NCBI RefSeq assembly: GCF_009914755.1
Contig: NC_060934.1
From: the human T2T-CHM13v2.0 reference genome, Homo sapiens
Direction: 5' to 3' (one strand)
Length of the DNA: 64,000 bases
The stretch's first letter is position 1. Each line of letters opens with the position of its first letter. The position numbers were made by a program, and so were the translations under genes. A model generated the notes under the pieces. The model made no database searches, was not told where the DNA came from, and saw nothing but the letters and a program-made list of their open reading frames with translations. This document shows positions 44,331-47,300 of this stretch, piece after piece.

Positions 44331-47300
44331 GGGGGAGGAGCCAAGATGGCCAAATAGGAACAGCTCCGGTCTACAGCTCCCAGCGTAAGCGACGCAGAAG
44401 ACGGGTGATTTCTGCATTTCCATCTGAGGTACCAGGTTCATCTCACTAGGGAGTGCCAGACAGTGGGAGCAGGTCAGTGGGTGCACGCACCGTGCACGAG
44501 CCGAAGCAGGGTGAGGCATTGCCTCACTCGGGAAGCGCAAGGGATCAGGGAGTTCCCTTTCCTAGTCAAAGAAAGTGGTGACAGACGGCACCTGGAAAAT
44601 TGGGTCACTCCCACCCAAATATTGTGCTTTTCCGATGGACTTAAAAAACGGCGCACCAGGAGATTATATCCCGCACCTGGCTCAGAGGGTCCTACGCCCA
44701 CAGAGTCTTGCTGACTGCTAGCACAGCAGTCTGAGATCAAACTGCAAGGCGGCAGCGAGGCTGGGGGAGGGGCGCCTGCCATTGCCCAGGCTTGCTTAGG
44801 TAAACAAAGCAGCCAGGAAGCTCCAACTGGGTGGAGCCCACCACAGCTCAAGGAGGCCTGCCTGCCTCTGTATGCTCCACCTTGGGGCAGGGCACAGACA
44901 AACAAAAAGACAGCAGTAACCTCTGCAGACTTAAATGTTCCTGTCTAACAGCTTTGAAGAGAGCAGTGGTTCTCACAGCACGCAGCTGGAGATCTGAGAA
45001 TGCGCAGACTGCCTCCTCAAGTGGGTCCCTGATCCCTGACCCCTGAGCAGCCTAACTGGGAGGCACCCCCAGCAGGGGCAGACTGACACCTCACACGGCC
45101 GGGTACTCCAACAGACCTGCAGCTGAGGGTCCTGTCTGTTAGAAGGAAAACTAACAAACAGAAAGGACATCCACACCAAAAACCCATCTGTACATCACCA
45201 TCATCAAAGACCAAAAGTAGATAAAATGACAAAGATGGGGAAAAAACAGAGCAGAAAAACTGGAAACTCTAAAAAGCAGAGCACCTCTCCTCCTCCAAAG
45301 GAATGCAGTTCCTCACCAGCAACAGAACAAAGCTGGATGGAGAATGACTTTGACGAGCTGAGAGAAGAAGGCTTCAGATGATCAAATTACTCCGAGCTAC
45401 AGGAGGACATTCAAACCAAAGGCAAAGAAGTTGAAAACTTTGAAAAAAATTTAGAAGAATGTATAACTAGAATAACCAATACAGAGAAGTGCTTAAGGGA
45501 GCTGATGGAGCTGAAAACCAAGGCTCGAGAACTACATGAAGAATGCAGAAGCCTCAGGAGCCAATGCGATCAACTGGAAGAAAGGGTATCAGCGATGGAA
45601 GATGAAATGAATGAAATGAAGTGAGAAGGGAAGTTTAGAGAAAAAAGAGTAAAAAGAAACGAGCAAAGCCACCAAGAAATATGGGACTATGTGAAAAGAC
45701 CAAATCTGCGTCTGATTGGTATACCTGAAAGTGACAGGGAGAATGGAACCAAATTGGAAAACACTCTGCAGGATATTATCCAGGAGAACTTCCCCAATCT
45801 AGCAAGTCAGGCCAACATTCAGATTCAGGAAATACAGAGAACGCCACAAAGATACTCCTCGAGGAGAGCAACACCAAGACACATAATTGTCAGATTCACC
45901 AAAGTTGAAATGAAGGAAAAAATGTTAAGGGCAGCCAGAGAGAAAGGTCGGGTTACCCTCAAAGGGAAGCCCATCAGACTAACAGCGGATCTCTTGGCAG
46001 AAACTCTACAAGCCAGTAGAGAGTGGGGTCCAATATTCAACATTCTTAAAGAAAAGAATTTTGAACCCAGAATTTCATATCCAGCCAAACTAAGCTTCAT
46101 AAGTGAAGGAGAAATAAAATACTTCACAGACAAGCAAATGCTGAGAGATTTTGTCACCACCAGGCCTGCCCTAAAAGAGCTCCTGAAGGAAGCACTAAAC
46201 ATGGAAAGGAACACCCAGTACCAGCCGCTGCAAAATCATGCCAAGATGCAAAGACCATAGAGAGTAGGAAGAAACTGCATCAACTAACGAACAAAATAAC
46301 CAGCTAACATCATAATGACAGGATCAAATTCACACATAACAATATTAACTTTAAATGTAAATGGACTAAATGCTCCAATTAAAAGACACAGACTGGCAAA
46401 TGGGATAAAGAGTCAAGACCCATCAGTGTGCTGTATTCAGGAAACCCATCTCATGGGCAGAGACACACATAGGCTCAAAATAAAAGGATGGAGGGAGATC
46501 TATCAAGCAAATGGAAAACAAAAAAAGGCAAGGGTTGCAATCCTAGTCTCTGATAAAACAGACTTTAAACCAACAAAGATCAAAAGAGACAAAGAAGGCC
46601 ATTAATTAATGGTAAAGGGATCAATTCAACAAGAAGAGCTAACTATCCTAAATATATATGCACCCAATACAGGAGCACCCAGATTCATAAAGCAAGTCCT
46701 GAGTGACCTACAAAGAGACTTAGACTCCCACACAATAATAATGGGAGACTTTAACACCCCACTGTCAACATTAGACAGATCAACGAGACAGAAAGTCAAC
46801 AAGGATACCCAGGAATTGAACTCAGCTCTGCACCAAGTGGACCTAATAGACATCTACAGAACTCTCCACCCCAAATCAACAGAATATACATTTTTTTCAG
46901 CACCACACCACACCTATTCCAAAATTGACCACATACTTGGAAGTAAAGCTCTCCTCAGCAAATGTAAAACAACAGAAATTATAACAAACTATCTCTCAGA
47001 CCACAGCACAATCAAACTAGAACTCAGGATTAAGAATCTCACTCAAAACCCCTCAACTACATGGAAGCGGAACAGCCTGCTCCTGAATGACTACTGGGTA
47101 CATAACGAAATGAAGGCAGAAATAAAGATGTTCTTTGAAACCAACGAGAACAAAGACACAACATACCAGAATCTCTGGGATGCATTCAAAGCAGTGTGTA
47201 GAGGGAAATTTATAGCACTAAATACCCACAAGAGAAAGCAGGAAAGATCCAAAATTGACACCCTAACATCACAATTAAAAGAACTAGTAAAGCAAGAGCA

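What the first reader, a model, noticed from the sequence alone, without database searches (positions are those of the whole stretch)
44331..44905. Upstream L1 antisense promoter with intact ORF0 aimed at CYP2C8; splice donor in frame with exon 3
Seen: the + strand L1 has a complete 5' UTR, so its antisense promoter would fire on the minus strand, the CYP2C8 sense direction, ~10 kb upstream of exon 1. It lies ~1-1.5 kb from the CAR/PXR DR4. ORF0 (ATG at 44782) is open for 102 codons. Both ORF0 donors are intact: CAG|GTGCGG after nt 106 (44677, phase 1) and CAG|GTGCCG after nt 191 (44592, phase 2). CYP2C8 exons 3, 4, 7 and 9 have phase-1 acceptors. Established: ORF0 forms fusion proteins with nearby exons. 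Inference: donor 1 spliced to exon 3 would encode 35 ORF0 residues plus CYP2C8 ~111-490, an anchor-less P450 keeping the I-helix, ExxR and heme Cys. It could be co-induced through the neighbouring xenobiotic enhancer or activated on hypomethylation.
Basis: partly seen in the sequence, partly recalled or inferred. Interest (0 to 1): 0.75.

Follow-up and report, generated by a model that had tools for sequence, protein, structure and literature searches.

The report
Ordinary L1 antisense ORF0 upstream of CYP2C8
The stretch is the start of an old, coding-dead L1 retrotransposon whose antisense ORF0 and splice donors are standard for its family, and although one donor is arithmetically in frame with CYP2C8 exon 3, nothing found here shows that such a fusion is ever made.

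Summary
These include a 5'-complete L1 on the + strand from 44331, the ORF0 ATG at 44782 (102 codons), GT donors after nt 106 and nt 191, phase-1 acceptors at CYP2C8 exons 3, 4, 7 and 9, and the CAR/PXR DR4 1.0-1.5 kb away.

These features are inherited family defaults. Of the 39 nearest genomic copies, 28 have the ATG, a frame open through the second donor and both GTs, and 23 have the same 102-aa ORF0. Frame compatibility is unremarkable, because donor 1 fits 4 of 8 acceptors and donor 2 fits none.

The proposed fusion needs exon 2 to be skipped. The default splice to exon 2 stops after 59 or 78 aa. The product would lack residues 1-110, which is far more than the anchor.

Competing acceptors exist. 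One lies inside the L1 and is used by real ESTs from another copy.

CYP2C8 is absent from the supplementary files of three L1-chimera papers. CYP2C18 is present.

Verdict: a known kind of element and an untested, a priori unlikely fusion. Interest is low.

The parts
44331..50226 (+). L1PA element. It is 5'-complete and shortened at the 3' end (...ATAGCAT followed by A7). ORF1 carries two in-frame stops and ORF2 is split into pieces of 96, 261 and 647 aa.
   Evidence: Sister copies are 93-95% identical over the whole 5'UTR.
44331..45234 (+). L1 5'UTR of 904 nt. The region 44331-45233 that was analysed (903 nt) holds 24 CpG, observed/expected 0.35.
44730..44930 (-). Region corresponding to L1 nt 400-600, where the antisense promoter is placed (position recalled from Speek 2001). 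It has only 3 private substitutions; the sister median is 3.
   Evidence: Criscione 2016 text places antisense starts within the first 600 bp of the 5'UTR.
44474..44782 (-). ORF0 in its older 102-aa form, stop codon included. No Pfam family matches it.
44671..44679 (-). ORF0 donor 1, CAG|GTGCGG. The last exonic base is 44677, phase 1.
44586..44594 (-). ORF0 donor 2, CAG|GTGCCG. The last exonic base is 44592, phase 2.
   Evidence: ESTs from another L1 copy use the equivalent site.
44445..44470 (-). Acceptor inside the L1 (...cactccctag|TGAGATG, first exonic base 44445). It is kept in 38 of 39 sisters. Donor 2 joined to it gives a 110-aa frame that ends in the flanking Alu T-run.
44018..44325 (+). 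Alu that abuts the L1 5' end. It is antisense on the minus strand, with a T-run followed by AGs just downstream of ORF0.
43307..43322 (-). Published CAR/PXR/PPARalpha DR4 of CYP2C8 (-8806).
32649..32811 (-). CYP2C8 exon 2. It has a phase-0 acceptor and is the default target, out of frame with both ORF0 donors.
32328..32477 (-). CYP2C8 exon 3. It has a phase-1 acceptor and is in frame with donor 1 only if exon 2 is skipped.

Best explanation
The interval is the 5' part of the 5'UTR of a fixed-looking, coding-dead L1PA element (probably L1PA3; the subfamily is inferred, not assigned by a repeat library). The L1 lies on the + strand, 10 kb upstream of CYP2C8. Its antisense strand carries what this family carries by descent: the antisense-promoter region, ORF0 in the older 102-aa form, two moderate-to-weak GT donors and an internal acceptor.

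Shown: all these sequence features, and their prevalence among sister copies.

Inferred: if the antisense promoter fires at all at this copy, most transcripts stay unspliced and end at one of many poly(A) hexamers. Others splice inside the L1 or into nearby decoy acceptors, or join CYP2C8 exon 2 out of frame, which gives a premature stop and probably nonsense-mediated decay. An in-frame ORF0-CYP2C8 (residues 112-490) protein is at most a rare by-product without function. The locus is an ordinary member of the roughly 3,200 ORF0-bearing L1 loci and not a special CYP2C8 device.
For: Family default. Of the 39 nearest copies, 28 have the ATG, a frame open through donor 2 and both GTs, and 23 have a 102-aa ORF0. 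The first look found 7,135 candidate matches to this 5'UTR in the genome, of which 40 were scored.

Age. The nearest copies are 93-95% identical. A 71-aa-ORF0 copy (L023) has relatives at 98-99%. ORF1 and ORF2 are broken.

Frame. Donor 1 to exon 2 gives 59 aa and donor 2 to exon 2 gives 78 aa. Donor 2 is in frame with 0 of 8 acceptors and donor 1 with 4 of 8.

Donor strength. Predicted U1 duplex energy is -7.2 and -6.8 kcal/mol, against -8.1 to -11.5 for 7 of the 8 natural CYP2C8 donors (a crude measure).

Competition. ESTs CF594064 and CF594290 in Criscione Table S3 join the equivalent of donor 2 to an acceptor inside the L1, and that acceptor is present here. By a crude rule, 14 further acceptor-like sites lie before exon 2. 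There are 39 AATAAA/ATTAAA hexamers between the ORF0 stop and exon 1.

Literature. About 57 of about 3,200 ORF0 loci were seen fused to an exon. L1 antisense chimeras typically start downstream of the gene's start site. CYP2C8 has 0 hits in the supplements of Criscione 2016 (988 genes), of the pan-cancer set of 903 genes and of the brain/glioma study. Three full-text searches found no paper linking CYP2C8 to an L1 promoter (passages read).
Against: Nothing in the sequence forbids firing. The antisense-promoter region has 3 private substitutions in 201 nt, equal to the sister median.

L1PA3 antisense promoters do give ESTs: 113 occurrences of 'L1PA3' in Criscione Table S1. The same table holds an EST (DA073117, cerebellum) from an L1PA6 about 43 kb upstream of CYP2C18, in the same gene cluster, so upstream L1 promoters can reach CYP2C genes.

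The catalogues searched are EST-based, or derived from that list, or from brain. None is a deep liver, induced-hepatocyte, hepatocellular-carcinoma or long-read data set.

Denli 2015 and its list of fusions could not be read.

My acceptor and donor scores are crude stand-ins for trained models.
Confidence: 0.8

Rival explanations
1. The antisense promoter of this L1 is active in hypomethylated or permissive cells (germ line, placenta, stem cells, tumours). It yields low-level chimeric RNAs that join ORF0 donor 1 or 2 to CYP2C8 exon 2. These RNAs are non-productive (premature stop, likely decay). They matter, if at all, as noise or as transcriptional interference across the -8.8 kb enhancer and the promoter.
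For: The orientation is sense to the gene. 92.1% of L1 antisense chimeras are sense to their gene. The promoter region is as intact as in sister copies. L1PA3 sources are common in the EST table. There is a CYP2C18 precedent in the same cluster. The exon 2 acceptor is strong.
Against: No such EST or transcript appears in the three catalogues searched, nor in the RefSeq rows supplied with the finding. Only 24 CpGs are left. Many poly(A) hexamers and decoy acceptors lie in the 11.8-kb path.
Confidence: 0.15
2. Donor 1 splices to exon 3 and an ORF0(35 aa)-CYP2C8(112-490) protein is made, possibly co-induced by CAR/PXR ligands. It acts as an anchor-less P450.
For: The 415-aa frame is open to the natural stop. 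It keeps the AGTETT I-helix motif, EIQR and the FSAGKRICAG heme-binding loop, all visible in the translation. The DR4 is 1.0-1.5 kb away. ORF0-exon fusions exist elsewhere.
Against: It needs a constitutive exon with a strong acceptor to be skipped. Donor 1 is weak. The product lacks residues 1-110, which by my recollection of P450 structures (not tested here) include the proline hinge, helix A, the first beta sheet, helix B and part of the B-C loop, so stable folding is doubtful. There is no RNA or protein evidence.
Confidence: 0.02
3. The L1 5'UTR matters as DNA and not through ORF0. It would be part of, or a boundary to, the distal xenobiotic enhancer region of CYP2C8.
For: It is close to the DR4. 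The DR4 itself lies in an ancient L1 fragment, so repeat-derived regulation occurs at this locus.
Against: The RefSeq enhancer rows supplied (42987-43404) stop 0.9 kb short of the L1. No binding or reporter data for 44331-45234 were found.
Confidence: 0.03

Closest known systems
L1 ORF0 and ORF0-exon fusions (Denli et al. 2015, Cell. The paper was not held and is known here only through passages of PMC4908685 and PMC4859970.)
   Same: An antisense ORF in the 5'UTR of a primate L1PA element, with a good start context and two internal GT donors. The sequence up to donor 2 matches the ORF0 peptides printed in Criscione Table S3.
   Different: ORF0 here is 102 aa, not the 70-71 aa given in print. 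A one-base difference just after donor 2 separates the two forms among the copies compared. No transcription, translation or fusion is shown for this copy.
L1 antisense-promoter chimeric transcripts (L1-MET and others; 988 genes in Criscione 2016). This set includes the CYP2C18 EST DA073117 from an upstream L1PA6.
   Same: The L1 is sense-oriented to a neighbouring gene and lies in the same CYP2C cluster, with an upstream position as in the CYP2C18 case.
   Different: Those are defined by an observed spliced RNA. For CYP2C8 none was found. Most catalogued cases start inside the gene, not upstream of it.
N-terminally shortened CYP2C8 isoforms (RefSeq alternative transcripts; a 2014 J Biol Chem study of mitochondrially targeted splice variants). 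Recalled only: the paper was not held.
   Same: They are CYP2C8 proteins that lack the N-terminal anchor and more.
   Different: They arise from the normal promoter by alternative splicing and carry no ORF0 leader. I could not check how much they lack or how active they are.

Membership tests
ORF0-bearing primate L1 (L1HS, L1PA2-8) | Lies on the antisense strand of a 5'UTR homologous to young primate L1s. | tested here: met
   The 903-nt 5'UTR aligns end to end at 93-95% identity with 39 other genomic copies. The subfamily label itself (L1PA3) is inferred from divergence. No repeat library was available.
ORF0-bearing primate L1 (L1HS, L1PA2-8) | An ATG in a good context opens a frame of about 70 codons or more. 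| tested here: met
   ATG at 44782, G at -3 and +4, 102 codons.
ORF0-bearing primate L1 (L1HS, L1PA2-8) | Two splice donors inside ORF0. | tested here: met
   GT follows nt 106 and nt 191. The second corresponds to the junction used in ESTs CF594064 and CF594290. Use at this locus was not tested.
ORF0-bearing primate L1 (L1HS, L1PA2-8) | Transcribed from the antisense promoter and translated. | not testable with these tools
   No RNA-seq, CAGE, ribosome-profiling or proteomic data could be queried.
L1 antisense-promoter chimeric transcript of a host gene | An observed spliced RNA that starts antisense in the L1 5'UTR and contains an annotated exon of the gene. | tested here: not met
   CYP2C8 has 0 hits in the supplements of PMC4908685 (11 files), PMC10506190 (11 files) and PMC9396940 (3 files). 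No RefSeq transcript starts there, by the rows supplied with the finding. These are shallow or non-liver sources, so this is absence of evidence.
L1 antisense-promoter chimeric transcript of a host gene | The L1 is oriented so that antisense transcription is sense to the gene. | tested here: met
   The L1 is on the + strand and CYP2C8 on the - strand.
Functional cytochrome P450 (for the proposed fusion product) | Keeps the I-helix AGxxT motif, ExxR and the Cys-containing haem loop. | tested here: met
   Donor 1 to exon 3 keeps residues 112-490. The motifs are visible in the translation.
Functional cytochrome P450 (for the proposed fusion product) | Complete catalytic domain, including the N-terminal beta-sheet and helices A and B. 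| tested here: not met
   Residues 1-110 are absent from the predicted product. That these residues hold those elements is recalled from P450 structures and was not computed here.

The most novel reading that the evidence does not exclude
This L1PA antisense promoter sits 1.0-1.5 kb from the CAR/PXR/PPARalpha DR4. It could be a drug-inducible or demethylation-activated alternative promoter of CYP2C8. A fraction of its transcripts would skip exon 2 and encode an ORF0-led, anchor-less CYP2C8 (residues 112-490) with an altered location or activity.
Probability: 0.02. Interest if true: 0.55.

Novelty: already known. Interest (0 to 1): 0.12.

Why it matters
CYP2C8 metabolises many drugs. A repeat-driven, inducible alternative promoter or a truncated enzyme would bear on variability in drug handling and on tumour expression.

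As it stands the locus illustrates the opposite point. An intact ORF0 with donors near a gene, in frame with some exon, is expected by descent and by simple arithmetic at many genes.

A rough estimate of my own supports this. It takes about 3,200 loci in 3.1 Gb and assumes they are spread evenly with either orientation. That makes on the order of a hundred genes with such an element within 15 kb upstream in sense orientation. Sequence alone is therefore weak evidence for a fusion protein.

Tried and rejected
Papers not held. Denli 2015, Speek 2001 and the 2014 paper on CYP2C8 splice variants were not held or not found. The positions of the antisense promoter and the behaviour of truncated CYP2C8 therefore rest on secondary text or on recall.

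Full-text searches linking CYP2C8 to L1, L1PA or transposable-element promoters gave two papers. One concerns intronic L1 repeats of CYP2C genes. The other is a hepatocellular-carcinoma HERV study that names CYP2C8 only in an expression list.

Pfam gives no family for the 102-aa ORF0, as expected for ORF0.

I considered folding the predicted fusion. A spliced product is not a letter-for-letter reading of the window, so I did not submit it.

I considered a trained splice-site model, but none is installed. I used U1 duplex energy and a pyrimidine-count rule instead. That rule missed the internal acceptor that ESTs actually use, which shows how crude it is.

I rejected the idea that the 102-aa length marks this ORF0 as special. 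It is the majority state among sister copies (23 of 39), while the 71-aa form occurs in 3 of 39. The one 71-aa copy that I checked, L023, belongs to a younger and more uniform set of copies.

Full report
WHAT IS THERE

Read on the + strand, an L1 begins at 44331 with the canonical 5' end. It has a 904-nt 5'UTR up to the ORF1 ATG at 45235 and runs to 50226. ORF1 has two in-frame stops in its 338 codons. ORF2 is split into open pieces of 96, 261 and 647 aa. The 3' end stops early (...ATAGCAT) before a short A-run. The element is therefore 5'-complete but coding-dead. An Alu on the + strand (44018-44325) abuts its 5' end.

THE OBSERVATION

On the minus strand the ATG at 44782 has G at -3 and +4 and opens a 102-codon frame that ends at 44474.

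- Donor 1 is CAG|GTGCGG. Its last exonic base is 44677, 106 nt from the ATG, phase 1.
- Donor 2 is CAG|GTGCCG. Its last exonic base is 44592, 191 nt from the ATG, phase 2.

The annotated CYP2C8 coding parts assemble into a 490-aa frame. Exons 3, 4, 7 and 9 start in phase 1, and exons 2, 5, 6 and 8 start in phase 0.

The published DR4 (PMC4631943, passages) occurs once in the window, at 43307-43322 on the minus strand. That is 1.0 kb from the L1 end and 1.46 kb from the ORF0 ATG.

IS IT SPECIAL?

A search of the window's own genome with the 903-nt 5'UTR gave 7,135 first-look candidates, of which 40 were scored. The 39 other scored copies are 93-95% identical and align over the whole length. This sample is the top of the ranking and so leans towards close and well-kept relatives.

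I fetched all 39 and aligned them. The tallies are:

| Feature | Copies with it |
|---|---|
| ATG | 39 of 39 |
| Donor-1 GT | 37 of 39 |
| Donor-2 GT | 39 of 39 |
| Frame open to donor 1 | 30 of 39 |
| Frame open to donor 2 | 29 of 39 |
| All features together | 28 of 39 |

ORF0 is 102 aa in 23 of 39 copies and 71 aa in 3 of 39. It is cut short in most of the rest, 7 of them at codon 25.

The 71-aa copies differ by one base just after donor 2. One of them, L023, has genomic relatives at 98-99% identity. So the 71-aa form described in print belongs to a younger and more uniform set, and the window's copy to an older one. From the divergence I infer L1PA3, within a range of L1PA2 to L1PA4. No repeat library was available to assign the subfamily.

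The antisense-promoter region (L1 nt 400-600, window 44730-44930; position recalled) has 3 positions at which 20% or fewer of the sisters share the window's base. That equals the sister median of 3 (range 0-9). The 5'UTR keeps 24 CpGs (observed/expected 0.35) against a sister median of 31.

In short, the copy is a typical, moderately decayed member of its family.

THE PROPOSED FUSION

I simulated every donor-acceptor pair from the window sequence.

- Donor 1 is in frame with exons 3, 4, 7 and 9, giving 415, 365, 205 and 95 aa.
- Donor 2 is in frame with none of the 8 acceptors.
- Joining to exon 2, the first exon with an acceptor and hence the default target of an upstream first exon, stops after 59 aa (donor 1) or 78 aa (donor 2).
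- Including the alternative exon 33687-33748 does not help (41 and 67 aa).

The exon 2 acceptor is strong: 13 of 16 pyrimidines, CAG, and no AG in the exclusion zone. This is about the same as exon 3, which has 14 of 16.

The out-of-frame ORF from donor 1 runs 24 codons into exon 2. It therefore overlaps Met71, the first in-frame Met of CYP2C8 after exon 1. Re-initiation at that Met is thus excluded too.

The in-frame product would begin CYP2C8 at residue 112. It keeps the I-helix motif, ExxR and the haem Cys loop but lacks 110 residues. By my recollection of P450 structures these include the hinge, helix A, the first beta sheet and helix B. I did not test this.

COMPETITION ALONG THE PATH

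By predicted pairing with the 5' end of U1 snRNA, the donors score -7.2 and -6.8 kcal/mol. They rank third and fourth among 31 GT sites in 44900-44331. They are weaker than 7 of the 8 natural CYP2C8 donors, which score -8.1 to -11.5 (a crude measure).

Criscione 2016 Table S3 prints two ESTs (CF594064, CF594290) from another L1 copy. Their ORF0 peptide runs up to the equivalent of donor 2 and continues with sequence from further down the same L1 5'UTR. That is an intron inside the L1.

The same acceptor (first exonic base 44445) is present here and in 38 of 39 sisters. Donor 2 joined to it gives a 110-aa frame that ends in the T-run of the antisense Alu, and donor 1 joined to it gives 37 aa.

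A crude rule finds 14 more acceptor-like sites before exon 2, one of them in the antisense Alu. There are 39 AATAAA/ATTAAA hexamers between the ORF0 stop and exon 1, the first at 43571.

WHAT IS IN PRINT

I saw the following as passages, not whole papers.

- ORF0 is found in L1HS and L1PA2-8. There are about 3,200 genic loci, and 57 were seen fused to an exon (PMC4908685).
- ORF0 has two splice donors and can form fusions (PMC4859970).
- Antisense starts of L1PA2-8 lie in the first 600 bp of the 5'UTR.
- 92.1% of chimeras are sense to their gene, and they typically start downstream of the gene's own start site.

In Criscione's supplements (11 files) CYP2C8 has 0 hits. The only CYP gene is CYP2C18, with one cerebellum EST from an L1PA6 about 43 kb upstream of that gene. 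In Table S1, 'L1PA3' occurs 113 times, 'L1PA2' 317, 'L1HS' 54 and 'L1PA4' 34.

CYP2C8 also has 0 hits in the supplements of a pan-cancer study of 903 L1-antisense-associated genes (11 files) and of a brain/glioma study (3 files).

Three full-text searches combined CYP2C8 with L1 or transposable-element promoter terms. They found only two irrelevant papers (passages).

None of these sources is a deep liver or induced-hepatocyte data set. Denli's own table could not be seen. The absence is therefore weak evidence.

VERDICT

The features are family defaults, and the frame match is a one-in-two coincidence for donor 1 (4 of 8 acceptors). The default splice is non-productive, and the product would be a severely truncated P450.

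The most likely state is a silent or sporadically firing L1 antisense promoter with no coding consequence for CYP2C8 (confidence about 0.8). Low-level, non-productive L1-to-exon-2 chimeras in permissive cells are a reasonable rival (about 0.15). The in-frame functional fusion is improbable (about 0.02).

The element is of a known kind, and interest is low unless junction reads turn up.

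Noticed in passing
window 42516-43621, minus strand (DR4 at 43307-43322): The published CAR/PXR/PPARalpha DR4 enhancer of CYP2C8 lies inside an ancient, degenerate L1 ORF2 (endonuclease-region) fragment that is in sense on the minus strand. 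A tblastn with the young L1's own ORF2 pieces hits 43621-43346 (48% identity, E 9e-26), 43300-43103 (55%, E 4e-20) and 42878-42516 (32%, E 2e-10). The DR4 falls in the 45-nt gap between the first two hits. The xenobiotic enhancer therefore looks repeat-derived.
   Followed up: partly
window 44018-44330 and 50220-50245: The L1 appears to have inserted into the A-tail of the Alu. The string AAAAAAAGAG precedes the L1 5' end (followed by AAATC) and recurs right after the L1's shortened 3' end. This may be the target-site duplication, but A-richness makes it ambiguous. The L1 3'UTR ends early at ...ATAGCAT.
   Followed up: no
Criscione 2016 Table S1, row 569 (hg19 chr10:96400508-96454786; outside the window): An L1PA6 antisense-promoter EST (DA073117, cerebellum) splices into CYP2C18 from about 43 kb upstream. 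It is the only CYP gene in that catalogue of 988 genes and lies in the same gene cluster as CYP2C8.
   Followed up: no
window 33687-33748, minus strand: The alternative RefSeq exon listed by the hub has a good acceptor (ttgtttcacag|) but is followed by AT and not GT at the listed boundary (CCA|ataagt). Its donor boundary or splice type may deserve a look.
   Followed up: no
loci L008, L010, L024, L029, L035, L036, L038 (sister L1 copies): Seven of the 39 sister copies have ORF0 cut at codon 25, all ending ...CCASNQ. The window's copy reads Q at codon 25 and L003 reads R. I did not read the DNA of that codon, so a recurrent CpG transition is a guess.
   Followed up: partly
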